From Blasia pusilla (lineage: Eukaryota): 64,000 nt of DNA. The DNA lies in contig CM114271.1 in assembly GCA_050084515.1 (NCBI GenBank), positions 16,616,001 to 16,680,000 of the forward strand. The letters run 5' to 3'. The position numbers were made by a program, and so were the translations under genes. This document shows positions 4,947 to 64,000 of this stretch, one piece after another. Position 1 is the first letter of the stretch. Every line of letters begins with the position of its first letter. Under the pieces are notes generated by a model, which did no database searches, had not been told where the DNA came from, and saw only the letters and a list, made by a program, of their open reading frames with translations.

Positions 4947-5702
4947 TGTCGTGCACATACACATCATTACACAACATACATAGCTATCACTGAACACACA
5001 CACAAACACGCACGATCCCATGCTAACTCATGGCATCCAAACAACCAGACAAGAAGTACCAAAATATCTCCAATAAAGTAAGATCCAATCTCTCTCTACA
5101 CAATCTCACACCATAGCTCTCAAAGGTGTGCACTCTCTCTCATGTCAAACCAAACCCACTCTCCTAATGAGAGGCTTGGGTTACACTCACAAGGCAAGGG
5201 ACCATAGCTCCGCCGCCTCATGCCAAGAGGTTCAACAAAGAAAGAATGAGCTCTCAAGCTCTCTCTCCTTGGGATACATACCCCCTCCCCTCTCCCAAGC
5301 TCTCTCCATGGTAACCTATTCTCCCAAGTCATCTCTTTGGCTCTTGACCTGATGTAGGAGGTCAAGGATCACTTACCAAAAATAGAAAGTCGATCATATA
5401 CTCAAAATGGTACTTACCTAAAATAGTAAGTTCCTCAATATGGCTCCAAATGAACCAAAACGGGGGGGAGGGGGGGGCCTCAGCAGGTCATCCTCGACCT
5501 CCTAGGCCTGTCCTCCACTACTCTTGAAGACGCTCTACTAGATCTCACCGATCTATCCTAAAGGACGTGACAACTATGGTACGCATACACATCGCTACAC
5601 AACATACATCGCTATCACTGAACACACACACAAACACGCACGATCCCATGCTAACTCATGGCATCCAAACAACCAGACAAGAAGTACCAAAATATCTCCA
5701 AT
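4947..5702 (-). repeat. 3' terminal repeat block of copy 1: A (4947-5074), B (5075-5572), 2-bp spacer, A (5575-5702)
   Basis: 4947 starts TGTCGTGC and 5572 ends GACGTGACA. 5575-5702 repeats 4947-5074. Confidence 0.9.
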
Positions 5703-5712
5703 CGCCCCCCTA
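5703..5712 (-). promoter_or_regulatory. Polypurine tract of copy 1
   Basis: Minus strand reads TAGGGGGGCG directly before A. The same tract is at 20449-20458 (+) and 62974-62983 (-). Confidence 0.7.
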
Positions 5713-5888
5713 GCTCGTGGTTAGGTCCCTCTAACTCTAGATAGCCATCTATCCCTACCTACCATGACATACATCTCTCAGACGCTAAGAGCAAGAAGGT
5801 CGGGTGCTCATATGGCCCCATCGTTAGTTGCCTTCCTCTCATCCATGTCAGAGAAAAAGTCGGGATCGAAACCTACCTAGTATCTCCT

Positions 5889-6215
5889 CTATGTACATCT
5901 GGGACATATCCATCGTCCCCGAGGAATCCTAGTGAGAGGTGGCGTCAGACATGCCATATGCCAACCTCTCGAACAACCATCACATACTAGCATCGTGGCC
6001 GCACCACGGGCAGAACCACATAACATACGACGCAAGCCTGCAAGAACTACTGCTAAGCTCGGATCCACTATACTATCAATGTTAGGAAGGTGACATGGTG
6101 CATAATTACGCACATGGTCCTTCCATACCATACCATCGCGTCCCTCCAGCAAGAGAACACCGGATGGCAAAACGTCACGCACTCTCAGGATAGTGCGCCC
6201 TGCAGTCACATCCAA
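5889..6215 (-). pseudogene. Integrase C-terminal extension with PHD finger
   Basis: (C)MLC...CDGC...WHMAC...WICPRC matches the C4HC3 PHD pattern. The first Cys is Arg in this copy but intact in copies 2 and 3. Confidence 0.88.
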
Positions 6216-6230
6216 CGTTGTCAGTGCCGT

Positions 6231-7150
6231 CTACTGCAAGTAGACATAATCTCCCTGATGAGACCTCCGGATAGTTGGTCGATAACCACCACCCCGAATA
6301 GTCGCATACCTCAACGTATCCTGATGTTGCGCAATCGTCAAGTTCTCGAACGCCATGGGCATCACTCTCTGAAATAACTCAGCCCTCTGAGAACATGCTC
6401 GCACCCATACATCTGGGTCATCAAGGTCAAGCACCTCATCAGCATCTCGACGAATGGCCGTAGGTAAATCTGGCTCTTGGCCATAAAGTAGCAAGTACGG
6501 TGAAAAAGACGCTAAGGATGCCTGCCTGCTGAATCTGTATCCCATCGCCAACCATGGCAAGTGGAGGTCCCAATCTCCTAGGTGACCTCTCTGCAAGCCA
6601 TACTTGCGTAAACCCCTCTTCACCGTCAGCACAACTCTCTCCGCTAATCCATCTGCCTTGGGATGATCTCGCGAAGTCGTGCGGTGGTCGATCAGCGCTT
6701 GATCACACAAGGCTTGGAACTCACCCCGAAACTCGGTACCCTGGTCTGTCAACACCTCAGCCGGTGCGCCATAATGACTTAGCACTCTGTCAAGGAAGGC
6801 ATAAGCTACTCCCTCACTTGCTTTGTCAAGCAATGCAACCAACTCGATCCACTTCGACAAGTGCTCGACCATCACCAACACATAACGACTGTGACGCTCT
6901 GTCAAGGGCAAAGGTCCTGCAAAATCCAAACTCCATCTATACCCTAAGCCCATGATCAGTAATGGATGCAACTGTGGAGTCGGAGCATTGAACGATGCTC
7001 AGACCCAATCACACACCATGCACCTGGCAACAAACTACTGAACGTCAGTCTGCATGCCTCGCCACCAATACTGAATCTGGAGCAAGCTGTACGTCCGCTT
7101 CACCCCAAAGTGACCCAACTCCTCGTGGGCATGCTGCACTAGTCGTGCTC
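6231..7150 (-). pseudogene. DDE integrase (HHCC plus rve core)
   Basis: HEELGH...CMVC zinc finger, then WSLDF, TDQG and AERV catalytic motifs. Confidence 0.92.
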
Positions 7151-7519
7151 TCTGCGAAGAATGCGGCACTACGCGTACTCTGCCATCCTCCCAAACCGTC
7201 AAAACATGTGTCCCCTCCCAACGGAACCGTCTGGCCCGCTGTAGGATCCGATCTCGCTCTCTAGCACCCATTGTGCTTGCAACGCTGCCAATACGAAGGT
7301 ACTCCAAGACTTCTCCATCATAATGAATATCTCGGCCACCTGTCATCTCCTCACTGGCCTCGGGATCCAAGGACTCCCCATTAGACCTCGCCATCAAAGT
7401 TTCCACACTTTGGCTCTCCATAGCCAACATGCCTAAATAGGCTGACGCGTGCCATCCTGGCACCGACTCCTCATCACTGTCTCCATGCCATCTAGCTCCA
7501 GTCGCATCTCGCTGACTTG

Positions 7520-8900
7520 GGCATGGGTTACAACTCAACCCATCTGCATCTTGGTTGAGCATCCCAGGTCTATGTACAACCTGAAAATCATACTCCTGCA
7601 ACAAAAGAGCCCATCTCGCAAGTTTCCATATAAGCTTGTCGGACTCCATCAACCACTTCGAAGTGGTTGATGATCGGTGATGATGGTAAAGGGGTTGACG
7701 AATAAGTAACACCTGAAATGCACGACAACCCACACCGCAGCCAACCACTCACCCTCATACGAGCTGTACTTCGCCTCTACAGCGTTTTTCGAGTGGCTAG
7801 CGTAATCCACCACGAACTCTCTACCCTCATCATCATGTTGGGTGAGCACCGCTCCAAGCCGCAACATGCTCTAATCTGTGTGCAACTGGAAAGGACGCCC
7901 ATTGATCGGTCTCCTCAAGATGGGCGCAGACGTCAACCTGTACTTGAGCAACTGAAATGCTCGCTCCTGCTCATCCCCCCACTACCACTCGTGATCCAAA
8001 GGTCAGTGGCTTTGCAATCGAACAGAATCCCTTGACGTATCGCCAATAGAAGTTCGCCAATCCCATGAATGTGCGAACCCGGCTCACATCTGTAGGGCAT
8101 GGAATGCGTGAGATAGCCTCTACCTTTGTTTGTTGAACACCAAGGCCCCCTGGGTACATCGTATGACCCAACTACTCAATCTGGCTGTAGAAGAACTTGC
8201 ACTTGCCAGGATGTAGCTTCAGCCCATGTAATTGCAATCGTCGAAACACCTCCTCTAGATGTTGCTCATGCTCCTCAACCGTGGCGCTAAAGACTACGAT
8301 ATCATCAATATAACACCTAGCAGAATCCAGACCAGCCAAGATCCTATCCATCACCCTCTGAAACTCAGCCGGGGTGTTCTTTAACCCAAATGGTAAGAAC
8401 CGCCACTGGTACAAACAATCCTTCCCGTGAGGATCGATGCCCCAAAATTCCGTCTTCTGCCTGTCCTCCAATCTGATAGGCAACTGATGGTATCCGGCTC
8501 GCAAATCCAATGAACTGAAGACCTTTGCGTGTTCAATCGCATCAAAGATCTCCTCACGGGTGGGCATGGCATACATATCGGACTTCGCCTGCCGATTGAT
8601 AGGTCGGTAATCCCCACACATCTGCCTATCCGTCCAATTGCCATGCACATCCTTCTTGGCGGACATGACAGTGGCAGATGCATACTCCCCATGCGACATC
8701 TCCACTAATTCTGCTCTGACCAAGTCCTGGCTCCTACTCTGAATCAGAGCCCTCTCCATATCACTGTACCTGTAGGGTCGTCGGAAGATCGGCGTATCAC
8801 TCCACTACTCAATGCGGATCCCCGGTCCCTTCAGCATACCCAAATCCTCCATGCTAAACGCAAAGCAGCTCCTATAACTCCTGAGGAACTAATGTATTCG
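7520..8900 (-). pseudogene. Reverse transcriptase and RNase H (gypsy type)
   Basis: MCGDYRPIN, LDLRAGYHQ, LPFGLKN, YIDD; RNase H motifs LGAVLTQ and TDHQPL. Confidence 0.95.
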
Positions 8901-9279
8901 GCGCCCCCCTCCTCCTTTCAACTTAGGGCCCATATCTGGCTCCCAAGTCTCCATCGTGACTACGGTAGGACTCTCCGGCGCGGGTATCGATGGTTGCTAT
9001 GGTGCAACCCCGTCTCGAACAACAACACTCGGCCGCTCTCCTGCAGCCAACTGCAAACTCTGATCTCCTCCACGTGCCGTGCCCGAAACCACACTCGATG
9101 TTGTGGCTATCATCTCCTTGCGTACCTGGAAAACATCCCAAGAAGTCCAAGGGTGTCTCTCCCGATCTCCTCGGGTCTCGCCCCCAGCCACTGCCTCCAC
9201 CGTCTTGGTAGGCATGGGGCTCACCAACGCAACCGCTGTGATCTGTCGCGATCTCATACGACGCTGTTCAGCCACTTCC

Positions 9280-10226
9280 AAGGTGAGGATCCATGTCAAG
9301 CAGTTCAGGTCCATCGCCTGACCCAAGACATGGCGTCGTGATGCCTGTAACATTGATGGTACTGCCGTCACTCCTATGGGAAATACCATCACTCGCTCTC
9401 TCTCGTTGGCGTTGGGCTCCACTAACCGCTGAACCTGGTCATCCCAAACCAAGTCAGGAGCGGCCTCCTTGTATGCATAGGAAGCGGGAAAACTCACAAA
9501 CGTGGGCAAGGCTGCCCTCGGCCTGCCTACCCTGTTGACCACAATCAACGGTGGTCGATCATCGTGCCTCACTGCCTGTGATCGACGACCTGTATCCAAA
9601 ATGGAATCCACTAACAAATGGGAGGGGCGCTCCACTCTCGCATACGTCCTCCGTAACACCGCATGGGGCATCAAGTTGGTCCACCATAGACACGGGCGAT
9701 GGGCTCTAGAACCTACACTCGCCGCATCCAAGAACACTGCTGGGCCAATCCAGGCACACACCTGATGAGCACTCGTCACCACCCGTGACCGGGAGTCTCC
9801 TAAGATCGGCACATTCTCCAGAACGTAGGCTGGAGAATGAGATTGGTGCTCCTGCAACTTTCGTAAGACCCTCAAAATCTCCCAAAATAACTTGGACCGA
9901 GTGTCAGCCAACCCGTTGCCTTGTCCAGCACTCGATTGGCCCTGACATGGCCAACCGGAAATGACCAAATCAATGGTCCCTACCCGCTCTAAGTCCTACG
10001 CCCCCAACAACAAAATATCCCTCGGTAGGGAACTGTGATATCCTAGTACTGCGGACGCAGACAATAAGTCGGGAAAACGTAGGCGTAATTGTGCCACATA
10101 TCGTAGTGAGACGCGCCTCGCAACATCATCACTCTCCACATACAAGCACTGTTGTACTTGCACTCTTGCCTGCAAAATAGTAGCTAACCCGATGCTAATC
10201 CCTTTAAAGAGATCTAACACTCGAAT
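9280..10226 (-). pseudogene. DNMT3-like C5 cytosine methyltransferase domain within pol
   Basis: Motifs I (VLDLFKGIS), IV (GWPCQ), VI (LENV), VIII (AHRPCLWWTNL), IX (ERERVMVFP) and X (RRHVLGQAM) in order. One internal TAG at 9996-9998. Confidence 0.9.
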
Positions 10227-10645
10227 ACCCTCCTCCGGGGTACACCACACAATGGGTGTGGTATCCAAGGGTGTCATCGTAGCACTCCCTACTACCTCGG
10301 GTTCCTCAGACCCGTCACGCTCCGGTGCAAACGCCTCGCTCCACGTGGTCTGCACGTGCTCATCTGCCAATCTTCGAAGCTCCTCAGTCGAGCCCCACAT
10401 TGGCACCTCTCCTCCACGGAATGATGCACCTACCATAACACTCCTCTCCATAGAAATGTCAGGAATGGGAGTATCCTCTGCATGGACATGTCCTCAATCA
10501 AATCACTAGGCCAAGTGATGGCACTGCTAAATGCTGCTAAGGTCGCCATCTCTCCTGGCCGTTGCTCGATCACTACACCTATGAATCAAATGGGTAATGA
10601 GCTAAGGCGCCCATCACCTGACTGCCATCCTGGTCTGTAGGACGC

Positions 10646-11060
10646 TCACTCCTCCCAGTAATCCATGGAAAACCGCAACGGGTATAACACTCCTCCACCA
10701 ACCAAGACGTCGTAGGACTCTACATCTGTCACTATTGCCTTGGCGCGCACCACAGACTCATCAGTAGGATGTCCCGAGCGAATCCTCATCATGACCTCCT
10801 GTCGGGTGATATACTGTGTGGTACTCGCTCCACCCAAGGATGTCTGTATCCGGAATGGACAACGCTCCACATCGGCTCTTATTAAGCCCAATCCTCTGAA
10901 TGACGCTTTCCCCAACATCATGGGTTGCGCTCCTGAATCCAACAAGACGCGTTGCGGACTAAAATCTCTACCTCCACGACTCACCAATTGAAAGACCTCT
11001 CCTCGGTTATCCAGCAACACAACAGCAGGAGAAGCCATGGCACGCTCTATCGCGGGTCTA
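10646..11060 (-). pseudogene. Retropepsin aspartic protease
   Basis: VLLDSGAQ active-site motif and a downstream YDVLVG motif. Confidence 0.8.
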
Positions 11061-11849
11061 GCGAGCATCTCCGCCATTCTAGCAGCCACAGCCTCCCATG
11101 AATCCGACGTGGACGGTCCGAGCATCCGCTCCAAGGGCAGGTCCATCACCTCCTCTGCAATCACCTCTGAACGTGATGCAGGAACTCCAACTCTACGCTC
11201 ACATAGCGACGCGGCCAGCCGAAAAGCCTCGGCGGGTGTACACCCCAACGTCATAACATCGGAAGTAGAAAATAAAAGAGTGCGGTACACAACGGTGGCC
11301 GCCCCCAACAATGTGCTTGACACATGCCCCTCCTGAGAATCAACAATAGGAGTCGTCGCACTCGCTTCTCCCATCGCCCTCCGTGCCTGCACACCAACAA
11401 CATCACCAACTCTCAAGGAACTTTGATGAGGATCCATCGATGGGGTCCTCATCGCTTCGGACAACGTGAAAGACTGAGGAAGCCTAGTCTATTTTCTGCT
11501 TCCCCTTGTTGTGGATCCAACTCTGTGGCTGCTCCATGCGTCACAACTGTGGCGGCCTCCATCTGGGCAACCCCGCACATCCAACCAGGATCCTCCAGAT
11601 CTCTAGCCGCTCCATATGATGTCGATGCCACGGATCCGGCATCGGGTAATCTCAATGCCATAGCGGCAATCTGCTCCTGTAGTTGGTGTATCTGAGTAGC
11701 CATCCCAGCCTCACGTCCGGCGTCTCTCTCGGCGCGTCTAGGTGGTGGTACTCTACCTCCTCCACGGGCAGCTCCACCACCCTGTCAGGCAACTCGAGAT
11801 CCTTGACCCCCAACGGGACCACCTGGTGCACGATCTCTAGGCCCACCCG

Positions 11850-13080
11850 GACCGGCTACTCGCTCTGGTGCCCTCTCTGGCCCTCGGTCCGAACGTAATT
11901 CAGGATGTAAACTAAAATACCTGGCGCATGTATGACCATACCTCTGACAATAGTCACACTGATAACCTCCTTGTGCAGCACCATCTCCTCCTCCATGCTG
12001 AGGCATACGTCCATGACCATAACGAGTGCAATGGCTGATGATGGGCTCCGCCACATGACCAACAAGTAATAGTAGGCGGCTACTGTTGAGCTGCATATGA
12101 AGGCGCAGGTCTCTGTGCCACGGGCTCCCAATATCCTCCCTCAGCTCATGGTGCCACAATTGACCTATCTCGGAATTCACGTTGCTGCACAGGTGGTGGA
12201 GCCAATCGCAACTCCTCTCGCCCAGAACCCATGGTGGCTACGCTCTCCTCCGCCATGTTGCGCTCAATGTTCTCGGCGGTCCTAAAAACATCTCTCAACG
12301 TAGGGGAGGTGTTCATAAGAAGCACCCCCTCCCACACCCGTGGCCGCAAGGTCTGGTCCAGCATCGCGTACCATGACTGGATAGCCTGAGCCTCTGTCAC
12401 CCCCTGAGTGACATTGATCAACCCGCGCAAGCGAGTGTAAGCCTCACGTAAACTCTCACCCGGGTGCCTCTGGAAGTTGTGGATGCTCCGCAACTTTTCC
12501 GTCCGTACCCCTTGGTAGCTCACCCTCAACTCAGCAAAGAACTCAACCACGGGGTTGAACGTGGGACGAACCTGACTAGACGGTGCAACTGCTCCAGTGC
12601 GAGTGACCCCTCCTAAAACATCACTAGTGGAAGAGGAAGTAACCCCTCATGACTCCTCCTCCTCATCTGGGAACGGCTCCGTCCATAACACATAGTGTGG
12701 GTTGTAGTGGAGTCCTGGGCAAATCTGTGGGAAAACTCATGGTAATCGTCCATGGGTGCCCCCTCTAAATGCTGGAACAAACCGTTCCATGTTGTAAACA
12801 GGTTTAACTCTCTAGAGTTCTTGGCCTGCTGGGAGTCGCACCAACTCCTAAACTCTGCTATGAAATCGTGCAACTCAATCGTACCTACTGCACCTGAAAA
12901 CCTACGCGGTCCTCTACCCTAGTCGTCCATCTCGTACGCCCAACTGGTAGGACCACTCACAATGTGTGGCGATGTGCTCACAAATTCCTCTACACCCTCC
13001 CCCTCGTCTGACGATGACACAGAAGGAGGTCGAGGTGGTCCCTGAAGTGAAGACTCTCGGAAGCTCACGCCACTCCGCGT
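11850..13080 (-). pseudogene. Gag remnants with degenerate zinc knuckle
   Basis: FQRHPGESLREAYTRL gag-like segment and CDYCQRYGH knuckle, split over several frames. Confidence 0.7.
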
Positions 13081-14029
13081 AAAACCTCTAGAGCTACTCT
13101 CGGGTTCACCACCTGGCCTCTCAAAGTCCCAAACGGAGGCCGTGATGACCCTCGTGCCTTACTCACCCGATCACTCTTGCCTCGCGAGTAATCCCTCAAT
13201 CACTCATCCCCAACATGTGGCACTCGATCTACACTCTCCCCCCAAACCTTTTACGTGCGGCAATAAGCGGCGTGGTACGGCAAATCGACTAAGCTATCAT
13301 CTCATCGACAACCTACCCTCAACTCCGGACATCCCACACAGGTCTATGTCCCCTAAATCACATACATAAATGATGCTCTCAGCATCCACACACCCAATAT
13401 CCCCAAATAAACTACCCAAATCCCAGAATCCCTCACACGTGCAGGGTAAAGGACCAAATGGGTAACCTGAACACATGTCAATGTCGCTCCTCAGCAACTG
13501 CGAATCTCAACCCCAACTCGGTCGTGGAGACAACTCCTCCAATCAGCAAGTCATACACCTCCCGTACTAACGTTGCTCAAAACTCCTCGGTAGATGGTGC
13601 AGTTCCAGCGGAACGGTGCAGCGTTGCAGGCAGCACGGAACGGCACGGCCCTCAATGATGGGATGCGGCACTCGGCGGCATACCCTCCTCAATCAACAAT
13701 AAACCCACACTCTCCTCCACAATGCCGGAGCGGCTCCGCGATCAAGACGGTGTGGTGCGGTCACGAGCGGCACGGCGCGGCAATCGGCGGCGCGTTGCAG
13801 CTACGGGCGTCACGGCACGGTACTCGATCGTCGTTCAGCGGCTACCAATCACAACATAGCAGCAGGAAATCAAAATTCAAACACTATAACATGAGGTCAT
13901 ATGCATCACATGTTGATGACGGTGGCGGCCAAAACAAAGTACGTGATGGCGATGAAAGTCCGAGAATCAACGAACGTTGTGGAAAACCCTCCACTCCGTA
14001 ACGGCGGCAATGGCAACCAAGGGTGGACA

Positions 14030-14814: not shown

Positions 14815-15131
14815 AAAGTAAGATCCAATCTCTCTCTACATAATCTCACACCATAGCTCTCAAATGTGTGCACTCTCTCTCATGTCAAACCAAACCCACT
14901 CTCCTAATGAGAGGCTTGGGTTATACTCACAAGGCAAGGGACCATAGCTCCGCCGCCTCATGCCAAGAGGTTCAACAAAGAGAGAATGAACTCTCAAGCT
15001 CTCTCTCCTTGGGATATTTACCCCTCCCCTCTCCCAAGCTCTCTCCATGGTAACCTATTCTCCCAAGTCACCTCTTTGGCTCTTGACCTGATATAGGAGA
15101 TCAAGGGCTACTTACCAAAAATAGAAAGTCG
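14815..15131 (-). repeat. Truncated 5' B repeat of copy 1
   Basis: Matches 5075-~5391. Not followed by A on the internal side. Confidence 0.9.
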
Positions 15132-18100
15132 CTAGGATGGCGGAGATGCCCGCTAGACCCGCGATAGAGCGTGTCATGGCTTCTCCTGGTGTTGTGTTGC
15201 TGGATAATCAGGGAGAGGTCTTCCAATTGGTGAGTCCCGGAGGTAGAGCTTTTAGTGCGCAATGCATCTTGTTGGATTCAGGAGCGCAACCCTCGATGTT
15301 GGTGAAAGCCTCATTCAAAGGATTGGGCTTGACAAGAGCCGATGTGCAGCGTTTTCCATTTCGGATATAGACATCCTTCGGTGGAGCGAGTACCACACAA
15401 TATATCATCCGACAGGAGGTCGTGTTGAGGATTCGCCCGAGACATCCTACAAATGAGTCCGTGGTGCAAGCCAAGGCAATAGTGATTGATGCAGAGTCCT
15501 ATGACGTCTTGGTTGATGGAGTAGTGTTATATCCAGTAGGGTTTTTCCTGGATTACCGGGAGGAGTCAGCATCCTATAGACCAAGATGGCTCTCTGGTGA
15601 TGGGTGCCTTAGCTTATTACCCATTCAATTCACAGGTGCACTGATCGAGCAACGGCCAGGAGAGATGGTGACCTCAGCATTATTTAGCAATGCCATCACT
15701 TGGCATAGTTATTTGATTGAGGAACATGTCCATTCAGAGGATACTCCCATTCCTGACATTTCTATGGAGAGGAGTGTCATGGTAGCCGCATCGATCTGTG
15801 GAGGAGAGGTGCCGCTTTGGGGTTCGACTGAGGAGATTCGACGCTTAGCCATTGAGCATCTACAGACCGCGTGGAGTGAGACGTTTGCACGAGAGTGTGA
15901 CAGGTCTAAGGAACCCCAGGTAGCCAAGACTGCTGCTATGACCCCTTTGGATATCACCCCGATTGTGTGGTGCATCCCAAAGAAGGGTATTTGGGTGTTG
16001 GATCTCTTTGGAGGGATCAGTATTGGATTAGTTGCTATTTTGTAGGCTGGAGTGTGCATGCACGAATACCTGTAGGTGGAGATTGATGATGTTGCAAGGC
16101 GCGCTTCACTTCACCATACCATGTGGCACAGTTACGCCTCCATTTTCCCAACTTGTTGTCTGCGTCCGCCATTCAGGGTTACTAGAGTTCCCTACCAAGG
16201 GACATTTCATTGTTGGGGGCGCATGACTTGGAGCGGGTAGGGACCATAGATTTGGTCATTTCTAGTTGGTCGTGTCAGGGCCAATCGCGTGGTGGACGAG
16301 GTAGCGGGTTAGCTTATACTTAGTCCATGTTATTTCGGGAGATGATGGGATTTTGCGACACTTGCAAAAGCATCACTCCCATTCTCCAGCATACATTCTA
16401 GAGAATGTGCCGATCTTGGACGATTCGAGGTCACGGGTGGTGACGAGTGCACATCAGGTGCGTGCATGGATGGGCTCATCAGGGTTTTTGGATGTGGCAA
16501 GTGTAGGTTCAAGAGCACACCGCCCGCGTCTTTGGTGAACCAATTTGGTCCCACATGAGGTTTTACGGAGGGCGTATGCTAGCGTGGAGCGCCCCTCCAA
16601 TTTTTTGGTGGATTCTATTTTGGATCCAGGTTGTCAATCAGAGGCAGTGAGGCACGATGATCAACCGCCGTTGACTGTGGTCAATAGGATTGGCATGCCA
16701 CGGGCAGCCTTTCCCATATTTTTGAGTTTTCTTGCTTCATATGCATTTCAAGAGGCCGGACCTGGCTTGGTTTGGGATGACCAGGTATAGAGGTTGGTGG
16801 AGCCCAACACCGATGAAAGAGAGCAAGAAATGGGATTCCCCATAGGAGTGATGGCAGTACCGTCACTATTAGAGGTATCACGACGTCATGTCTTGGGATA
16901 GGAGATGGACCTGAACTGCTTCATATGGATTTTCAGCTAAGGCATAGCTGAGCAGCGTCATTTGAGGATGCGACATATCACAAATGTTGCATTGGTGAGC
17001 CCCATGTCTACCGAGATGGTTGAGGCAATGGCTAGGGGCAAGATGTGAGGAGATCGACACGCCAAGGGTGATTGGGAGAGACACCCTTGGACTTCTTGGG
17101 ATGTTTTGCAAGTACGCCAGGAGATGATAGCCACAGCATCGAGCGTGGTTCCGGGTAATGCACGTGGAGATGAGAATCTGTTGTCTGAGATGGGGTTGCA
17201 CCATAGCAACCACTAACACCTGCGCTGGAGAGTCCTACCGTAGTCACAATGGAGACTTGGGAGCTAGATATGGGCCCTAAGTTGACAGGAGGAAAGCGGC
17301 GCCGGATACACCAGTTCCTTAGGAGTTATAGGAGTTCCTTTACATTTAGTATGCATGATTTGGGTACGCTCAAGGGTCCAAGGATCTGCATTGAGTTATC
17401 GAGTGACACACCGATCTTTCGACGACCCTACAACTACATTGACATGGAGAGGGCTCTAATTCAGAGTAGGAGCCAAGACTTAGTTGGAACAGGACTAGTG
17501 GAGATGTCGCCTGGAGAGTATGCATCTGCCCTTTGTCATGCCCGCCAAGAAGGATGTGCATGGCAACTGGAGGCATAGGCAGATGTGTGGAGATTACCGA
17601 CCTATCAATTGGCAGACAAAGTTCAATAGGTATGCCATGTCCACCCCTGAGGAGATCTTTGATACGATTGGGCATGCAAAGGTCTTCAGGTCATTAGATT
17701 TGCGAGCCGGATTCCATTAACTGCCTATCAAATTGGAGGACAGGCAGAAGACGGCATTTTAGGGCATCGATCCTCACAAGAAGGATTGTTTGTACAAGCG
17801 GCGGTTCTTACCATTTGCTTTAAAGAACGCCCCGGTTGAGTTTCAGAGGGTCATGGATAGGATCTTGGCAGGTCTGGATTTTGCTAGGTGTTATATTGAT
17901 GACATCGTAGTCTTTAACGCCACAGTTGAGGAGCATGAGTGATATCTAGAGGAGATGTTTCGACGATTGCAATTACATGGGCTGAAGCTACATCCAGCAA
18001 GTGCAAGTTCTTGTACGACCAGATTGAGTAGTTGGGTCATACAATATACCCAAGGGGCCTTGGTGTGCAGCAAATGAAGGTAGAGGCTATTTCACGCATT

Positions 18101-20586
18101 CCACGCCCTACAGATGTGAGTCGAGTTCGTGCATTCATGGGATTGGCGAACTTCTATCAACGATACGTCAAGGGTTTTAGTTTGATTACAAAGCCGCTAA
18201 CCTTGCTGACCAAGATGGATCAAGAGTGGCACTGGGGGGATGAGCAGGAGAGAGCATTTCAGCTGCTCAAGGATATATTGACATCCGCGCCCATTTTGAG
18301 GAGACTGATCAGGGGGCGCCCTTTTGAGTTGCATACCAATTGGAGCATGTTGGGGCTTGGAGCCGTGCTCACCCAGCATGACGATGATGGTAGAGAGTTT
18401 GTGGTGGCTTATGCTAGTCGCTCGAACAACGCTGCAGAGGCAAAGTATAGCTTGTATGAGGGTGAGTACTTGGCTGCAGTGTGGGCTCTTGCACATTTTA
18501 GATGTTATCTATTCGGAAATCCCTTTACCATCATTACTGATCATCATCCACTTAAGTGGTTGATGGAGTCCGACAAGCTTATAGAGAAGCTTGCGAGGTG
18601 GGCTCTTTTGTTGCAAGAGTATGACTTTGAGGTGGTGCATAGACTTGGGACGCTCAACCAAGATGCAGATGGTTTGTGCCGTAACCCATGCTAGAGTCAT
18701 CGAGATGCGATTGGAGCTTGTTGGCATGGTGAGAGCGATGAGGAGTTGGTGCGAGGATGGCACGCGTCAACCTATTTGGGCTTGTTGGCTTTGGGGAGCC
18801 AGATTGTTGAGACTTTGATGGCGAGGTCTGATGGAGAGTCCTTAGATCCAGAGGCAGGTGAGGAGACGACAAGTGGCCGAGACATTCACAACGATGGACT
18901 AGTCTTGGAGTATATGCGTACTGGCAGCGTCACGAGCACAATGGGTGCTAGAGAGCGCGATCGGAGCGCGAGTTTGGGAGGATGGTAGAGTGCGAGTGGT
19001 GCCTCATCCTTCGTAGAGAGCACATTTGGTGCGTCATGCCCACGAGGAGTTGGGTCATTTTGAAGTGAAGCTGACGTACAGCTTGCTCTAGATTCAATAT
19101 TGGTAGCGAGGCACGCAGACTAACGTTCAGCAATTTGTTGCCAGATGCATGGTGTGTGATCAATTCTGAGCATCGTTCAATGCTCCGACTCCACAATTGC
19201 ATCCACTTCCAATCATGGGTTTAGGTTATAGATGGAGTTTGGATTTGCAGGACCGTTGCCTTTGACGGAGCGCCATAGTCGTTATGTGTTGGTGATGGTC
19301 GAGTACTTCTCGAAGTGAAAAGAGTTGGTTGCATTGTCTGACAAAGCAAGTGAGGGAGTAGCATATGCCTTCCTAGATCAAGTGTTGAGTCATTATGGCG
19401 CACCAGCTGAGGTCTTGACAGACCACGGTATAGAGTTTCGCGGGGAGTTTCAGGCCTTGTGTGATCAGGCGTTGATCGACCACCGTACCACTTTGCGAGA
19501 TCATCTTGAGGCGGATGGACTAGCGGAGAGGGTTGTGCAGATGGTGAACAGAAGATTACGCAAGTATGGCTTGCAGAGAGGTCACCTAGGAGATTGGGAC
19601 CTTCAGTTGCCGTGGTTGGCAGTGGGATACAGATTCAGCAGGCAAGCATCCTTAGCGTCTTTCTCATCGTACTTGCTTTTGTATGGCCGAGAGCCAGATT
19701 TACTTACGGCCATTCGTCGAGATGTTGGTGAGGTGTTGAACCTTGATGACCCTTATGTATGGATGTGAACATGTTCTCAAAGGGCTGAGTTATTTCGGAG
19801 AGTGATGCCCATGGCGTTTGAGAACTTGGAGATTGTGCAACATCAGGATACGTTGAGGTATGCGACTATTCGAGGAGGTGGTTATTGACCTACTATCCGG
19901 AGGTTTCATCAGGGAGACTACGTCTACTTATAGCAGACGGCACCCACGACGTTGGATGTGACTGTAGGGCGCACCATCTTGAGAATGCGTGAGATTTTGC
20001 CATCCGGTGTTCTCTTATTGGAGGGACGTGATGGTATGGTTTGGAAGAACCATGTGCGTAACTGTGCGCCATATCATCTTCCGAACATTGACGATACAGT
20101 TGATCCAAGCTTAGGAGTAGTTCGTGCAGGCTTGAGATGTATGTTGTGTGGTTCCGCTCGTGGTGCAGCCACTATGCTAGTCTGTGATGGGTGTTCGAGA
20201 GGATGGCATATGGCATGTCTGACGCCACCTCTCACTAGGGTTCCTGAGGGACGATGAATGGGCCCCATATGTACATAGCGTTGGTAGTTCTACATTTCGA
20301 CTTGTGTCTATGACATGGATGACAAGAAGGCGAATAACGATGGGGCCACATGAGCATACGGCCTTTTTGCTCTTAGTGTCTGAGAGATGTATGTCATGGT
20401 AGGTAGGGATAGATGGCTATCTGGAGTTAGAGGGACCTAACCACCAGCTAGGGGGGCGATTGGAGATATTTTGATACTTCCTGTCTCGTTGTTTGGATGT
20501 CATGAGTTAGCATGGGATCGTGCATGTTTATGTGTGTGTTCGGTGACAACGATGTATGTTGTGTAGCGATGTGTATGCGCACGACA
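15132..20586 (+). mobile_element. Copy 2 of the DNMT/PHD gypsy element, 5'-truncated just upstream of the protease, ending in PPT plus A only
   Basis: Inverted homolog of ~5575-11082. DNMT ~15985-16940 (PC mutated to SC), RT/RH ~17430-18694, INT ~19020-19950, PHD ~20135-20277, A 20460-20586 ending GACA. Confidence 0.93.
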
Positions 20587-22233
20587 AGAGAAAAGAGAGA
20601 ACGAGGAAAAAAGAGGAACAGTGTCACCTACGAAGAAGGCTGGAGAAGAGCTATGTGCGTTATTCACTAAAGACTCCCGAGCCTCAACAAACAATCGAGA
20701 AAAACCCCAATCAAAAAATTGTTGGCATTTAGCTCGAAGGGCACTGGAAAGCATCACCTACAAAGAGAGAAGGAGAAGGAACCATGCAACGCAAATCAGC
20801 AATCAGCAACGTCGTGCCACGAATCACCAAAGCTTTGACGTCAAAACGCGATTCCTCGCCACCCGCAATACCAACAAACAAAGCGAAGGCCGCAACGACC
20901 GAGGCCCTTGTAGAAACCAAGAATCCGTCCCCACAAATTCAATCGGTGACGAAAACTTCATGCTAATCCGATCGATGGCCCGAACGACCATGTTTGCGCA
21001 AAGTGTTTGCATCCATCCATCCACTGTCGGTCGCTTCCGTCCATCTGGCCGATTCCGTCCATCCCTTACCTTCCGCCCTATTCCTTCCATCCTATTCGCT
21101 TCGTCCAACCGTCACCGCTCTGTCCATCCATTCTACTTCGTCCATCCTTCCCACTCTGTTCACCTAAACTCTCACACCTTCTGCATCTTAAGCGGGCCCT
21201 GATCCTGAACCTTGGGCGTGCAAACAGCCGAGCCACTTGCGGCTAGTCTACAGCCTAATGAATGAGTTTCCTAGGCTATCTATGGCCTTTGGTCCCTAGG
21301 GTGCATGGGATGGCCATGAAATTTGTTGTTATAATAAATTATTTAAAAGAAAACTGAAAGGTATTTTCACTCACCGGTTTGGCTGGGACGGTCACTACGT
21401 GACGACCTGACGCCACCCCTATCCGTCCGAATCTCCAGCTGGCTAGAGGTAATCTCCAGCCCAGTTTAGAGGCCCATTTTGGAGGTCCTCCCACCCGGTC
21501 CAGAGGAAGTTTACGGCACGCACGCGGAGGGTCGATGATGCGGCGAGTCGCAAGTCCGGAGTCCGGCGAGTCCCTCGAGCCAGAACCAGAAAGAAACGAA
21601 AGAGCCAGGGGACGGACTCCGGGTAATATTCTGATGGGACCAAAGAATGTTCTGTGTGGCCAATGTTGGGCGTTTCATGCCATCTGTGCATGTATGACGC
21701 ATACGAATCTAGGTTTCTCATTTCTTCTGCCGCTCACGGGCTCCCATTGCTTCTCAGCAGGTCCCACTCCGGTCATTTTGCAACAGCTCTTCCGGTTATT
21801 TACCGGACGAGTTCTTCGCTTCCAGATATTTTCCTGCTCCAAGGAAAGCTTGCCATGGTTTGATAACCTCCGGCTCTCCTATCACACGATAGGAGAGCCG
21901 GAGTCAAGTTCTTCATTTCAGGTCACTTGCCGGCCTTTTCCTCCCATTGTCTATTTAATCCCTTGCAGATTTAAGGAACAGTATCCGTTTTTCCCCCTCA
22001 TCACACTTTTGATCCAGTTTTTCTTGCAATAGCGGGTGAGATGGTCGATTGTTACCATGCCATGCCATGCCATGAGGATCATGGTCCCAGTCTGAAATAG
22101 GAGATCTAAAGACGAATCCCATTACAAACACGAACACAAGACACGGAGAAGAGGACGGGAGAGAGAGTGAGGGAGGAAGGGAAGCAGGGAGGAGACATAC
22201 AGAGAGTGGACCTGAGGAGAAGAGGGCGACGAG

Positions 22234-62206: not shown

Positions 62207-64000
62207 TGTCGTGCGCATACACATCGCTATACAATATACATCGCTGTCACCGAACACACACAAAAACACGCACCATCCCATGCTAACTCATGGCATCCAT
62301 ACACAAAGGCGAGAAGTACCAAAATATCTCCAATAAAATAAGATCTAATCTCTCTCACAACACCATAGTTCTCACATGTGTGCACTCTCACATGTCTCTC
62401 TCAATGTCAAACCAAACCCACTCTCCTAATGAGAGGCTTGGGTTACACACACAAGCCAAGCAAGACCATAACTCCGCCGCCTCATGCCAAGAGGTTCAAC
62501 AAAGAGAGAATGGGCTCTCAAGCTCTCTCCTTGAGATATACTCCTCCCCTCTCCCAAGCTCTCTCCATGGTAACCTATTCTCCCAAGTCACCTCCTTGGC
62601 TCTTGACCTAATGTAGGAGGTCAAAGGACACTTACCAAAAATATAAAGTTGATTGTATACTCAAAATGGTACTTATCTAAAATAGTAAGTTTCTCAATAT
62701 GGCTCCAAATGAGCCGAAACGAAAAGGAAACCTGCTCTCTCAAGTTTCCCGGGACCTCAGCAGGTTATCCTACTGACTCTGTCCTCTGCTACTCACGAAG
62801 GCACTCTACTAGGTCTCACCAATCTATCATAAGAGACGTGATAGTTGTCGTGCGTATACACATCGCTACACAACATACATCGTTGTCACTGAACACACAC
62901 ACAAACATGCACGATCCCATGCTAACTCATGGCATCCATACACAAATGCGAGAAGTATCAAAATATCTCCAATCGCCCTCCTAGCTGGTGGTTAGGTCCC
63001 TCTAACTTTAGATAGCCATCTATCCCTACCTACCACGACGTACATCTCTAGGACACTAAGAGCAGAAAGTCCGGGTGCTCATGTGGCCCCATCGTTAGTC
63101 GCCTTCCTGTCATCCATGTCACAGAAAGATTCGGAATCGAAACCTACTTAGTATCTCCTCTATGTACATCTATATGCCAACCTCTCGAACATCCATCACA
63201 GACTAGCATCGTGGCCGCACCACGGGCAGAACCACACAACATACAACGCAAGCCTGCAAGAACTATTGCTAAGCTCGGATCTACTGTACCATCAATGTTA
63301 GGAAGGTGACATGATGCACAATTACGCACATGGTCCTTCCATACCATACCATACCATATCATCGCGTCCCTCCAGCAAGAGAACACCGCATAGCAAAACG
63401 TCACGCACTCTCAGGATAGTGCACCATGCAGTCACATCCAACGTCGTCGGTGCCGTTTTCTGCAAGTAGACATAATCTCCCTGATGAAACCTCCGGAGAG
63501 TTGGTCGATAACCACCACCCCGAATAGTAGCATACCTCAATGTATCTCGATGATGCGCAATCGCCAAGTTCTCGAATACCATGGCCATCACTCTCCAAAA
63601 GAACTCAGCCCTTTGAGAACATGCTTGCATCCATACATCTGGGTCATCAAGATCCAGGACCTCACCAGCATCTCGACGAATGGCCGCATGTAAATCTAGC
63701 TCTCGGCCATAAAGTAGCAAGTACGGTGAAAAAGATGCTAAGGATGCTTGCCTGCTGAATCTGTATCCCATCGCCAACCAGGGCAACTGGAGGTCCCAAT
63801 CTCCTAGGTGACCTCTCTGCAAGCCAAACTTGCGTAAACTCCTCTTCACCGTCTACACAACTCTCTCTGCTAATCCATCCGCCTCGGGATAATCTCGCGA
63901 AGTTGTGCGGTGGTCGATCAGCGCCTGATCACACAAGGCCTGGAACTCACCGCGAAACTCGGTACCTTAGTCTGTCAACACCTCAGCTGGTGCGCCGTAA
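62207..64000 (-). mobile_element. Copy 3 of the PHD gypsy element (3' part; runs off the window)
   Basis: A-B (62207-62843), GT spacer, A (62846-62973), PPT, PHD with internal deletion, integrase core. Confidence 0.92.

What the first reader, a model, noticed from the sequence alone, without database searches (positions are those of the whole stretch)
9280..10226. DNMT3-like cytosine methyltransferase embedded in pol of a plant retrotransposon
Seen: C5-MTase motifs I, IV (PCQ), VI (ENV), VIII, IX and X in linear order between protease and RT, at the same position in copy 2, so it is part of the family and not a one-off capture. Known (from memory): retrotransposon-borne DNMTs were reported in dinoflagellates and the charophyte Klebsormidium (de Mendoza et al. 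2018). The motif order is not permuted as in plant DRM. Inference: a land-plant lineage of such elements that may methylate its own cDNA or its target site.
Basis: partly seen in the sequence, partly recalled or inferred. Interest (0 to 1): 0.88.

Follow-up and report, generated by a model that had tools for sequence, protein, structure and literature searches.

The report
Liverwort retrotransposon with DNMT3-like methyltransferase
This is a decayed copy of a retrotransposon family that carries its own DNMT3-type DNA methyltransferase, a kind of element described from a green alga and seen here, abundant and transcribed, in a land plant.

Summary
On the minus strand, 9264-10256 encodes a colinear C5-cytosine methyltransferase domain (PF00145; closest to DNMT3A/B/C). 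It lies between protease and RT of a Ty3/Gypsy-like element: gag-PR-DNMT-RT-RNaseH-integrase-PHD, about 4947-15131.

This copy is dead. The domain has an in-frame TAG and changes at two conserved positions, and the element has at least 6 frame changes and about 14 stops. Copy 2 (15131-20587, + strand) is worse.

The domain belongs to the family. The order recurs in 79 of 80 related metagenome loci. The catalytic Cys is kept in 170 of 172 relatives and the ENV Glu in 172 of 172. dN/dS is 0.14 between two intact relatives. One relative (L027) is fully open.

New anatomy:
- The DNMT ends ORF1 (gag-PR-DNMT), before a conserved UAG-CAR-YYN stop that precedes RT-RH-INT-PHD.
- The ends are split direct repeats (A-internal-B-A-B), with TG..CA termini and 4-bp target duplications in relatives. 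The published Klebsormidium Gypsy-DNMT3 legend describes the same arrangement.

Named relatives are liverworts and Sphagnum. The host's DVR gene is 85% identical to Riccia. RNA-seq of the same organism covers relatives of the element, strand-specifically.

Verdict: new land-plant member of a known kind. Methyltransferase function is untested.

The parts
4947..5074 (-). Terminal repeat B2, the right end of copy 1; it ends ...GCACGACA at 4947
   Evidence: 97.5% identical to B1 (5584-5702) over 119 nt. End motif located. Relatives end the same way.
5075..5572 (-). Repeat A2; it starts TGTCACG at 5572
   Evidence: 5074-5392 is 95.6% identical to 14814-15131 over 319 nt. Boundaries.
5584..5702 (-). 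Repeat B1, directly after the polypurine tract
5703..5711 (-). Polypurine tract (AGGGGGGCG) abutting B1
   Evidence: A G-run sits at the same place in L046, L050, L054 and L072.
5889..6230 (-). PHD finger at the integrase C-terminus
   Evidence: PF00628 E=5.4e-12. The PHD of the intact relative L027 is closest to CHD4, PHF12, PHF21A, KDM5, ATXR5 and UHRF1 PHD fingers.
6231..7160 (-). Integrase: rve core at 6231-6998, H2C2 zinc domain at about 7035-7160
   Evidence: PF00665 1.6e-12 and PF17921 8.5e-12.
7658..7996 (-). RNase H, frame-shifted relative to RT and integrase
   Evidence: tblastn with L027 ORF2 residues 344-456. Copy 2's equivalent hits PF17917 at 7.2e-35.
8034..8870 (-). Reverse transcriptase
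   Evidence: PF00078 9.9e-28; tblastn.
8991..8999 (-). Conserved stop between DNMT and RT: TAG CAA CCA, with RT in the same frame
   Evidence: The same stop and a CAR-YYN context occur in 30 of 33 close-clade rows, including the intact L027 (TAG CAG TTA).
9264..10256 (-). DNMT3-like C5-cytosine methyltransferase domain, motifs I to X, broken by TAG at 9996-9998
10583..11452 (-). Aspartic protease region
   Evidence: tblastn to the L027 and Marchantia polyproteins. L027's equivalent gives PF13650 at 2e-4, below Pfam's cut-off. The window ORF itself has no Pfam hit.
11500..12930 (-). gag with a CCHC knuckle. ATG at 12930; a stop at the fourth codon; three frames.
   Evidence: tblastn to Marchantia P0089; sequence read.
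14815..15131 (-). Repeat A1, the left-end repeat of copy 1. It lacks its first ~187 nt and abuts copy 2.
15131..20587 (+). Copy 2, inverted and truncated inside protease. DNMT at 16099-17027, stop TAG CAA CCA at 17204-17212. It ends after one B repeat.
62207..64000 (-). Copy 3: 3' part only (integrase, PHD, B-A-B repeats). It runs off the window.
   Evidence: 84.8% identical to 4947-6774 over 1868 nt; tblastn.

Best explanation
**What is shown**

The stretch is the methyltransferase module of a dead copy of a high-copy Ty3/Gypsy-like retrotransposon family in a liverwort-like land plant.

The element reads, on the minus strand: repeat A, a long leader, ORF1 (gag-CCHC, protease, DNMT3-like methyltransferase), UAG, ORF2 in the same frame (RT, RNase H, integrase, PHD finger), polypurine tract, then repeats B, A, B.

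The DNMT is an old, selected component of the lineage. It keeps its position and its catalytic residues across relatives that are only 35-65% identical.

**What is inferred**

1. The UAG sits in a CAR-YYN context, which as I recall matches the tobamovirus-type leaky stop. I infer that it is read through at low frequency. Gag-PR-DNMT would then be the abundant product and the full polyprotein the rare one. The methyltransferase would be made in capsid-like amounts and cut free by the protease.
2. The DNMT is packaged with the RNA and RT, and methylates cytosines of the new cDNA or of DNA at the integration site.
3. The PHD finger on integrase resembles readers of unmethylated H3K4 (reader specificities recalled). 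I infer that it tethers integration to promoter-poor chromatin, as chromodomains do in chromoviruses.

I put identity and anatomy at about 0.95. Catalytic activity on DNA in intact relatives is about 0.6. Self or target-site methylation as the selected role is about 0.35.
For: **Domain identity**
- PF00145 E=4e-12.
- Family profile against PDB: DNMT3A 3.3e-25, DNMT3B/3C about 1e-23, DRM 9e-15 (partial), DNMT2 1.6e-11, M.HhaI 2.7e-10.
- AlphaFold model of the intact L027 domain: pLDDT 93.0, pTM 0.92.
- All 31 listed Foldseek PDB rows are DNMT3A/B/C, best E=3e-19, target-normalised TM 0.79-0.82 for catalytic-domain chains.

**Architecture**
- Pfam hits for RT, integrase and PHD.
- Of 80 metagenome loci, protease lies just upstream in 56, RT just downstream in 59, and both in 41. 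Five are uninformative, one has the other order (L071) and one has an internal deletion (L023).

**Constraint**
- Among 172 full-length family domains: motif IV Cys in 170, ENV Glu in 172, and the two motif VIII Arg in 169 and 170.
- dN/dS for L027 against L030, both open: 0.14 (331 codons, dS 0.25).
- dN/dS for window copy 1 against copy 2: DNMT 0.25-0.29, integrase 0.18, PHD 0.24, RT 0.44, linker 0.83.

**An intact relative exists**
- L027 has ORF1 of 1369 aa and ORF2 of 1047 aa in one frame, separated by a single TAG.

**Conserved stop**
- 30 of 33 close-clade rows have TAG or TAA followed by CAA/CAG and YYN at the homologous codon. Both window copies are among them.

**Terminal repeats**
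- Searches show the layout.
- 4-bp target duplications: GGTC in L046, CCAA in L050, CATA in L072.

**Abundance and transcription**
- One DNA run of the same organism gave 136,709 contig pieces at 90% likeness or more.
- Three RNA-seq runs from one study cover all 30 bins of 5880-13000 with a 10- to 30-fold strand bias. In most stranded libraries that bias means sense transcripts.

**Host and relatives**
- DVR is 85% identical to two Riccia species.
- Named DNMT relatives come from Calypogeia, Marchantia, Riccia and Sphagnum.
Against: - No activity was measured, and this copy cannot be active. It has a TAG in the domain and changed residues in motifs I and VIII, plus about 14 further stops and at least 6 frame changes across the element.
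- Most relatives are also decayed. Among the 80 metagenome loci only L027, L071 and a few others keep long ORFs.
- In the decayed clade, DNMT dN/dS has a median of 0.54 (range 0.38-1.05, 38-39 pairs against one reference). That is no better than RT (0.50) and worse than RNase H (0.35) and integrase (0.34).
- RNA reads are almost all only 90-95% like this copy (2300 of 2630 in X22; 1-4 reads at 99% or more per run). This copy is essentially silent.
- I could not calibrate the library's strand convention on a host gene.
- Readthrough is inferred from sequence context only. 24 of the 30 conserved contexts read CAA CCC (21 after TAG, 3 after TAA), which departs from the recalled optimum CAR-YYA at the last base.
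- The distant clade (36-41% identity) has no stop there.
- The complete A-int-B-A-B pattern was seen in 5 of 19 long loci. One repeat pair was seen in 5 more, and none in 9.
- The CpG deficit of the elements (o/e 0.55-0.75) is no stronger than that of flanking AT-rich DNA (0.41-0.48). It says nothing about self-methylation.
Confidence: 0.75

Rival explanations
1. The DNMT acts on RNA rather than DNA. For example, it could place m5C on the element's genomic RNA or on a primer RNA, to aid packaging, stability or priming.
For: - De Mendoza et al. raise RNA methylation for the LINE-borne DNMT that failed to methylate DNA in yeast (PMC5890265, Discussion, read).
- The domain is made with Gag, which handles RNA.
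- No canonical TGG primer-binding site follows repeat A in the window or in L046, L050, L054 and L072 (seen; not an exhaustive search).
Against: - Sequence and fold are closest to the DNA enzymes DNMT3A/B/C, by about 14 orders of magnitude over DNMT2.
- The same paper showed CG DNA methylation by the DIRS-borne DNMT3 in yeast (PMC5890265, Discussion).
Confidence: 0.1
2. The domain is a neutral passenger: captured once, carried along, and of no use to the element.
For: - Most copies, including both in the window, are broken.
- dN/dS within the decayed clade is about 0.5.
Against: - The position is kept across relatives of 35-65% identity.
- Catalytic residues are near-invariant in 172 domains.
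- dN/dS is 0.14 between intact copies.
- Between the window copies, dN/dS of the domain (0.25-0.29) matches integrase and PHD, while the adjacent linker is at 0.83.
- There are 530 clusters at 50% identity with E of 1e-30 or better.
Confidence: 0.04
3. The domain works without catalysis. It could be a DNMT3L-like partner or a decoy that binds host DNMT3 or its cofactors and blunts host silencing.
For: - DNMT3-family enzymes act as oligomers with inactive paralogues, as the PDB entry titles show (DNMT3A-3L, 3B-3L, 3A2-3B3).
- Production at Gag-like levels would suit a stoichiometric inhibitor.
Against: Inactive paralogues lose catalytic residues. Here Cys, Glu and both Arg are kept in 169-172 of 172 domains.
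Confidence: 0.06
4. Bryophyte elements captured a DNMT3 independently of the charophyte Gypsy-DNMT3. On this view it is a separate land-plant invention.
For: - No named Klebsormidium sequence was recovered in any search, so shared ancestry is not shown by sequence.
- Two domain orders exist in the wider family: PR-DNMT-RT and RT-RH-DNMT-INT.
Against: - The window family has the same odd repeat layout (A-internal-B-A-B with a DDE integrase) that the Fig. 4c legend of PMC5890265 reports for KnitGypsy-Dnmt3.
- Both domain orders share the C-terminal PHD.
- On the DNMT tree the two orders need only one change (124 rows, SH-like support 98, unrooted FastTree).
Confidence: 0.15

Closest known systems
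KnitGypsy-Dnmt3 of Klebsormidium nitens (de Mendoza et al. 2018, PMC5890265; passages and Discussion read, figures and supplements not seen)
   Same: - An unpermuted DNMT3-type domain sits inside the polyprotein of an element with Gypsy-type domains.
- It is intronless and multi-copy.
- There is purifying selection on the DNMT.
- The repeats are laid out as in DIRS elements (A-coding-B-A-B) despite a DDE integrase.
   Different: - The host is a land plant (liverwort-like), and named relatives come from liverworts and Sphagnum. The paper mentions no Marchantia (0 occurrences) and assigns the acquisition to the K. nitens lineage.
- Copy number here is very high, whereas the paper stresses few copies in K. 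nitens.
- The ORF1 position before a conserved UAG, the PHD finger and the 4-bp target duplications are not in the text I could read.
- Domain order in K. nitens could not be compared.
SymbioDIRS-Dnmt3 of dinoflagellates (same paper)
   Same: It is a retroelement-borne DNMT3-like domain. Its split direct repeats have the same layout. More than one domain order is seen within a lineage.
   Different: Those elements use a tyrosine recombinase and are DIRS elements. Here the element has protease, a DDE integrase with an H2C2 zinc domain, TG..CA ends and target duplications.
Cellular DNMT3A/B/C, plant DNMT3 and DRM
   Same: The catalytic fold and motif order are those of DNMT3.
   Different: - There are no PWWP or ADD domains.
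- The region between motifs VIII and IX is longer: the domain is 331 aa against about 285 for the DNMT3 chains.
- It is embedded in a polyprotein.
- DRM is permuted and this domain is not.
Chromoviruses (Ty3/Gypsy with a chromodomain at the integrase C-terminus; cited in bioRxiv 10.64898/2026.05.21.726589, passages read)
   Same: A histone-reader module is fused to the integrase C-terminus.
   Different: It is not a chromodomain.
EpiLTRs of Cymbomonas and Euglena (bioRxiv 10.64898/2026.05.21.726589, passages read)
   Same: They are LTR elements that combine a cytosine DNMT with a chromatin-reader domain.
   Different: Their DNMT is sister to DNMT4 and they also carry an adenine methyltransferase. 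The preprint itself sets them apart from 'streptophytes (Gypsy-DNMT3)'.
Leaky-stop expression of pol (gammaretrovirus gag-UAG-pol; tobamovirus UAG-CAR-YYA; recalled, not from a call)
   Same: A single in-frame UAG lies between an upstream structural ORF and the downstream RT ORF. The CAR-YYN context is conserved.
   Different: Readthrough is untested here. The upstream ORF carries protease and the methyltransferase as well as gag.

Membership tests
C5 cytosine methyltransferase (PF00145) | Profile match above the curated threshold | tested here: met
   46.6 bits against a cut-off of 22, E=4e-12, profile positions 61-120 of 324. The intact relative L027 gives 51.1 bits over positions 2-120.
C5 cytosine methyltransferase (PF00145) | Motifs I, IV (PCQ), VI (ENV), VIII (RxR), IX and X in canonical order, with catalytic Cys and Glu | tested here: met
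   The order is colinear with DNMT3A. In the family, Cys is kept in 170 of 172 and Glu in 172 of 172. In this copy Cys and ENV are present, but motif I has K for G/A, motif VIII has C for R, and a TAG interrupts the domain.
C5 cytosine methyltransferase (PF00145) | Methyl transfer to cytosine C5 | not testable with these tools
   No assay was possible, and this copy is broken.
DNMT3 subfamily | Closer to DNMT3 than to DNMT1, DNMT2, DRM or bacterial enzymes | tested here: met
   The profile against PDB gives DNMT3A 3.3e-25, DRM 9e-15, DNMT2 1.6e-11 and HhaI 2.7e-10. Foldseek's listed rows are all DNMT3A/B/C. This compares solved structures only. It is not a phylogeny.
DNMT3 subfamily | Placement inside the DNMT3 clade in a tree with host DNMT3 and DRM | not tested
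   No named host DNMT3 or DRM sequence could be obtained. The 150 best representatives were all from the transposon family.
DNMT3 subfamily | N-terminal PWWP and/or ADD reader domains | tested here: not met
   No such Pfam hits occur in the window ORFs or in L027 ORF1. The domain is flanked by protease and RT. It is therefore a DNMT3-like catalytic domain, not a DNMT3 gene.
Gypsy-DNMT3 retrotransposons (KnitGypsy-Dnmt3) | DNMT3-like domain within the polyprotein of an element with Gypsy-type RT-RNaseH-DDE integrase | tested here: met
Gypsy-DNMT3 retrotransposons (KnitGypsy-Dnmt3) | DIRS-like repeat layout (A-coding-B-A-B) | tested here: met
   The window copy 1 has A1 (truncated)-internal-B1-A2-B2. 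The full pattern is seen in L046, L050, L054, L072 and L077, which is 5 of 19 long loci. Five more are partial and nine show none.
Gypsy-DNMT3 retrotransposons (KnitGypsy-Dnmt3) | Purifying selection on the DNMT across copies (paper: Ka/Ks < 0.2) | tested here: inconclusive
   The ratio is 0.14 for the one intact pair and 0.25-0.29 for the two window copies. The median is 0.54 in a clade of decayed copies, similar to RT.
Gypsy-DNMT3 retrotransposons (KnitGypsy-Dnmt3) | Sequence-level kinship with the K. nitens elements; same domain order | not tested
   No named K. nitens sequence was returned. Fig. 4c and the supplements could not be seen.
Ty3/Gypsy LTR retrotransposons (Metaviridae) | Order protease-RT-RNaseH-integrase, and a gag with CCHC | tested here: met
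Ty3/Gypsy LTR retrotransposons (Metaviridae) | Two identical LTRs at the ends, with a tRNA primer-binding site next to the 5' LTR | tested here: not met
   The left end has repeat A only and the right end has B-A-B. No TGG-type site follows A in the five elements read. The family works like a Gypsy element in its proteins but not in its ends.
Ty3/Gypsy LTR retrotransposons (Metaviridae) | TG..CA termini and short target-site duplication | tested here: met
   Relatives have TGTCATG...CACGACA ends and 4-bp duplications in 3 of 4 loci read, with L054 matching at 3 of 4 bases. The window copy 1 ends ...GCACGACA. Its left end is truncated, so its duplication cannot be read.

The most novel reading that the evidence does not exclude
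A bryophyte-wide clade of Gypsy-like retroelements makes a DNMT3-type enzyme as part of its gag-protease ORF, at capsid-like dosage and ahead of a leaky UAG. It uses the enzyme to write cytosine methylation on its own cDNA or landing site. A PHD finger on integrase meanwhile chooses H3K4-unmethylated chromatin. On this reading the element sets its own epigenetic state at birth instead of leaving that to the host. It would also replicate through an unconventional intermediate, which would explain split direct repeats combined with a DDE integrase. Marchantia carries open ORF1 copies (for example P0088 and P0089), so this would be testable in a genetic model plant.
Probability: 0.3. Interest if true: 0.85.

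Novelty: new member of a known kind. Interest (0 to 1): 0.6.

Why it matters
Retrotransposons that carry a de novo DNA methyltransferase invert the usual picture, in which methylation is the host's weapon against them. Eight years after their description their role is still open, according to the Discussion of PMC5890265.

The published streptophyte case is a charophyte alga with few copies. Here the same kind of element is very abundant and transcribed in a land plant. Its relatives sit in Marchantia, Riccia, Calypogeia and Sphagnum genomes, where they are annotated only as hypothetical proteins.

That moves the question into organisms with transformation, mutants of the host methylation pathways, and methylomes.

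The added anatomy gives concrete, falsifiable handles on how the enzyme is dosed and where the element lands:
- the DNMT lies in the gag-protease ORF, ahead of a conserved UAG;
- a PHD finger sits on integrase;
- the ends are split direct repeats with target duplications.

It also warns annotators that 'extra DNMT3 genes' in bryophyte genomes are largely transposon ORFs.

Tried and rejected

- Whole-genome search of the window's assembly: none is held.
- The look-up of sequencing runs listed no RNA holder by its index. The RNA evidence comes only from laying three raw-read runs of the same species label.

**Searches that did not answer the question**
- Phylogeny against host DNMT3, DRM and the algal elements was not possible. 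The three homology searches and the representative search returned only transposon-borne relatives or unnamed proteins.
- Cluster look-up gave no names for the RT-RH-DNMT-INT type.
- The ESM Atlas gave only generic PF00145 clusters, one mostly Streptophyta and others phage-labelled. These are leads only.
- A scan of viral contigs found 54 weak, mostly half-domain matches (24-49% identity, best E=2e-12) typical of phage methylases. There is no close viral relative.

**Analyses that were weak or failed**
- L027 has no direct repeats of 40 nt or more, so its ends are not on the contig.
- A first regex pass for the stop context was too strict: it recovered only 11 rows, 6 of them with a DNMT-bearing upstream ORF. 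It was replaced by a tblastn-anchored walk.
- CpG observed/expected was not informative.
- The protease and gag ORFs of the window have no Pfam hit of their own.

**Literature**
Eight full-text searches found no paper that describes DNMT-bearing retrotransposons in liverworts or mosses. Two later papers speak of 'streptophytes' in general (PMC12344493 and bioRxiv 10.64898/2026.05.21.726589; passages read). Their supplements, which I could not see, may already place bryophyte sequences in that clade.

**Readings rejected**
- A host DNMT3 gene next to a transposon. The domain shares frame and position with the element in nearly all relatives.
- A DRM-type enzyme. The motif order is not permuted.
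Full report
**1. The observation**

On the minus strand the window holds a retroelement whose ORFs give clear Pfam matches:
- RT, PF00078, E=9.9e-28 (8172-8804)
- integrase zinc domain, PF17921, and core, PF00665 (7035-7748 and 6231-6998)
- PHD finger, PF00628, E=5.4e-12 (5889-6230)
- C5 cytosine methylase, PF00145, E=4e-12, 46.6 bits against a cut-off of 22 (ORF 8997-9995)

Read through as one frame, 8997-10493 gives 499 codons with a single internal stop. That stop is TAG at 9996-9998.

Motifs I, IV (GWPCQG), VI (ENV), VIII (AHRPCLWWTN), IX and X (LGQAMD) follow in canonical order.

An inverted second copy (15131-20587) is 80-92% identical arm by arm. It has the domain at the same relative place, but spread over three frames with about eight stops.

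**2. What kind of methyltransferase**

The window ORF alone finds DNMT3A as its best solved relative, at 1.4e-6. A profile of 14 family members sharpens this:

| PDB target | E-value | Coverage |
|---|---|---|
| DNMT3A | 3.3e-25 | colinear over the whole catalytic domain |
| DNMT3B / 3C | about 1e-23 | |
| tobacco and Arabidopsis DRM | 9e-15 to 4e-12 | profile positions 45-178 only, aligned to DRM's C-terminal part |
| DNMT2 | 1.6e-11 | |
| M.HhaI | 2.7e-10 | |

The partial DRM alignment is what a permuted enzyme should give.

An AlphaFold model of the domain of an intact relative (L027) has pLDDT 93.0 and pTM 0.92. All 31 listed Foldseek rows in the PDB are DNMT3A, B or C. The best E is 3e-19, and target-normalised TM is about 0.8 for catalytic-domain chains.

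There is no PWWP or ADD domain. It is a DNMT3-like catalytic domain, not a DNMT3 gene.

I could not build the tree against host DNMT3 and DRM. Every search returned only transposon-borne or unnamed relatives.

**3. The element and the state of this copy**

tblastn with the polyproteins of an intact relative and of Marchantia gives this order for copy 1:

| Module | Coordinates |
|---|---|
| gag | 12930-11500 |
| protease | 11452-10583 |
| DNMT | 10256-9264 |
| RT | 8870-8034 |
| RNase H | 7996-7658 |
| integrase | 7160-6231 |
| PHD | 6230-5889 |

The copy changes frame at least six times. It carries about 14 stops besides the conserved one.

Within the DNMT it has K at a motif I position where none of 172 relatives has K (G in 129, A in 26). 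It has C at the second motif VIII arginine, which is R in 170 of 172.

The two A repeats differ by 4.4% and the two B repeats by 2.5%. This is an old, dead insertion.

A third copy begins at 62207 and runs off the window.

**4. Is the domain part of the family?**

Yes.

*Homology searches.* They found 86 relatives of similar length and 37 longer ones.
- The best is 65% identical and comes from Calypogeia fissa.
- Others are named Marchantia polymorpha, Riccia sorocarpa and four Sphagnum species.
- Several Marchantia gene models are gag-protease-DNMT proteins of 1248-1278 aa, or run on into RT.

*Representative search.* It counted 22,805 hits at E of 1e-3 or better, and 530 at 1e-30 or better, among clusters at 50% identity.

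*Metagenome scan.* It gave 412 confirmed loci, of which 80 were kept. Among the 80:
- protease lies just upstream of the DNMT in 56;
- RT lies just downstream in 59;
- both hold in 41;
- five contigs are too short to tell;
- L023 has an internal deletion;
- L071 has the order RT-RNaseH-DNMT-integrase-PHD.

*Two domain orders.* Across 267 family proteins, 44 show the window's order and 106 show the other. The remaining 117 are the domain alone. On an unrooted FastTree of 124 domains the two orders need one change, with SH-like support 98. Both orders end in a PHD finger.

**5. Selection**

| Comparison | dN/dS |
|---|---|
| L027 vs L030 DNMT, both open (dN 0.035, dS 0.254, 331 codons) | 0.14 |
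| Window copies: DNMT | 0.25-0.29 |
| Window copies: integrase | 0.18 |
| Window copies: PHD | 0.24 |
| Window copies: RT | 0.44 |
| Window copies: protease | 0.61 |
| Window copies: linker after the DNMT | 0.83 |
| Decayed clade vs one reference, medians: DNMT | 0.54 |
| Decayed clade medians: RT | 0.50 |
| Decayed clade medians: RNase H | 0.35 |
| Decayed clade medians: integrase | 0.34 |

The decayed-clade comparisons are not independent of each other, and they are inflated by decay after insertion.

The domain is therefore constrained about as much as RT. It is not evolving neutrally. The clean evidence, however, rests on one intact pair.

**6. New anatomy: a conserved stop after the DNMT**

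L027 is open throughout. ORF1 (976-5085, 1369 aa: gag, protease, DNMT) ends in TAG. ORF2 (5086-8229, 1047 aa: RT, RNase H, integrase, PHD) follows in the same frame.

The window has TAG at the homologous codon (8997-8999), again in frame with RT. The contexts are:
- TAG CAG TTA in L027 and L030
- TAG CAA CCA in both window copies
- TAG CAA CCC in 21 loci
- TAA CAA CCC in 3
- TAG CAA CTC or CTA in 2

That makes 30 of 33 rows of the close clade. None of the 29 rows of the distant clade has it, and there DNMT and RT share one ORF.

From memory, UAG-CAR-YYA is the tobamovirus leaky-stop context. On that basis I infer programmed readthrough. If so, the methyltransferase is made with Gag and protease in excess over RT and integrase. 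This is inference and no translation data were available. The Marchantia and Calypogeia gene models that stop some 60-70 residues after motif X fit it.

**7. New anatomy: the ends**

Copy 1 has, in reading direction:
- repeat A1 (15131-14815, lacking its first ~187 nt where it abuts copy 2)
- a leader of about 1.9 kb
- the coding region
- a G-rich polypurine tract (5711-5703)
- repeat B1 (5702-5584)
- repeat A2 (5572-5075)
- repeat B2 (5074-4947), ending ...GCACGACA

The same A-internal-B-A-B layout is complete in L046, L050, L054, L072 and L077. It is partial in five further loci and absent or unreadable in nine of the 19 long loci examined.

In the four loci read base by base:
- the element starts TGTCATG and ends CACGACA;
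- one or two bases separate B1 from A2;
- 4-bp target duplications flank three of them (GGTC, CCAA, CATA), and the fourth matches at 3 of 4 bases.

No TGG-type primer-binding site follows repeat A.

The Fig. [quoted passage not shown] It gives that DIRS layout as A-coding-B-A-B. The window family meets this unusual criterion.

How a DDE integrase handles such a genome is unexplained.

**8. Host, abundance, expression**

The single-exon divinyl chlorophyllide reductase gene at 51169-52245 is 85% identical to Riccia fluitans and R. sorocarpa. It is 76-77% identical to Calypogeia and Physcomitrium. The window is therefore from a land plant, most likely a liverwort near the complex thalloid group. 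It is not Marchantia polymorpha, judging by the 61-62% identity of the best Marchantia DNMT hits.

Runs labelled with one coded organism hold up to 0.40 of the element's sampled words. Laid on 5880-13000:
- One DNA run gave 136,709 contig pieces at 90% likeness or more.
- Three RNA-seq runs from a single study covered all 30 bins.
- Reads whose first mate lies on the + strand outnumber the others 10- to 30-fold. In most stranded libraries this means RNA of the minus strand, which is sense to the element. I could not calibrate this on a host gene.
- Nearly all RNA reads are only 90-95% like this copy (2300 of 2630 in X22), and 1-4 per run reach 99%. Relatives are transcribed; this copy is not.
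- Depth differences along the element partly reflect how conserved each region is. They are not a measure of expression.

**9. Mechanism**

*Shown:* identity, position, conservation, an intact relative, family-level transcripts.

*Inferred:* leaky-stop dosing, release by the protease, co-packaging, and methylation of cDNA or the target site. The last follows the reasoning of de Mendoza et al. for cDNA-first elements (Discussion).

The PHD finger of L027 is closest to those of CHD4, PHF12, PHF21A, KDM5A/B, ATXR5 and UHRF1. As I recall, these read an unmodified H3 tail. That suggests integration away from H3K4-methylated promoters, but it is a lead only.

Rivals are RNA methylation, a non-catalytic decoy, a neutral passenger, and independent capture in bryophytes. 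They are weighed in their own sections.

**10. Novelty and verdict**

The kind of element is known (PMC5890265). Two later papers speak of Gypsy-DNMT3 in 'streptophytes'.

Eight full-text searches found no description of such elements in liverworts or mosses. Unseen supplements may already show them.

I file it as a new member of a known kind. Three features were not found in the text I could read: the DNMT in ORF1 before a conserved UAG, the PHD finger, and target duplications around split repeats.

Interest is moderate to high. Relatives in Marchantia would make the open question of what transposon-borne DNMTs do experimentally approachable.

Noticed in passing
window 61045-62649: Downstream of copy 3 the terminal-repeat units recur in tandem. 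61045-61686 and 61885-62147 match the B2 plus A2 repeat region of copy 1 (4947-5572) at 86-89%. The layout suggests unequal recombination or repeated end structures.
   Followed up: partly
window 15131: There is a head-to-head junction. Copy 1's left repeat, lacking about 187 nt, abuts copy 2, which is cut inside protease. This could be a deletion between two neighbouring insertions or an assembly join.
   Followed up: partly
window 14013-14212: Seven or more tandem units of 20 nt (GACGGTGACGGTTGACC-like) lie in the ~1.9-kb leader between repeat A1 and the gag ATG.
   Followed up: no
window 46945-49434 (-) and 51169-52245 (+): Two host genes are present. One has F-box (PF12937) and JmjC/cupin (PF02373, PF13621) exons. 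The other is a single-exon divinyl chlorophyllide a 8-vinyl-reductase, 85% identical to Riccia.
   Followed up: partly
P0105, P0109, P0114-P0116 (proteins of 1991-2239 aa): The relatives with the order RT-RH-DNMT-INT-PHD carry about 350 further residues after the PHD finger and a long N-terminal region, both without Pfam hits. P0116 has four other members of identical length (2239 aa) in its 90% cluster, so that type looks recently active in an unnamed source.
   Followed up: partly
L071:1-10057: A 3.5-kb direct repeat at 99.9% identity (1-3498 matches 6557-10057) covers RT-RNase H and stops where the DNMT begins in the second copy.
   Followed up: no
window 5880-13000: Where reads of relatives differ from this copy, the window has T or A where the reads have C or G more often than the reverse (in X22, T>C 120 and A>G 83 against C>T 66 and G>A 59). 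This fits C-to-T decay of a methylated, silent copy. CpG o/e is 0.74 and TpG+CpA o/e is 1.25.
   Followed up: partly
window 27578-31189 (+): Several ORFs of 143-278 aa lie in an AT-rich stretch. The three tested have no Pfam hit. They may be remnants of another repeat.
   Followed up: partly
window 1-64000: The elements are G+C-rich islands (0.49-0.54) in a window whose other intergenic DNA is 0.30-0.40 G+C.
   Followed up: no
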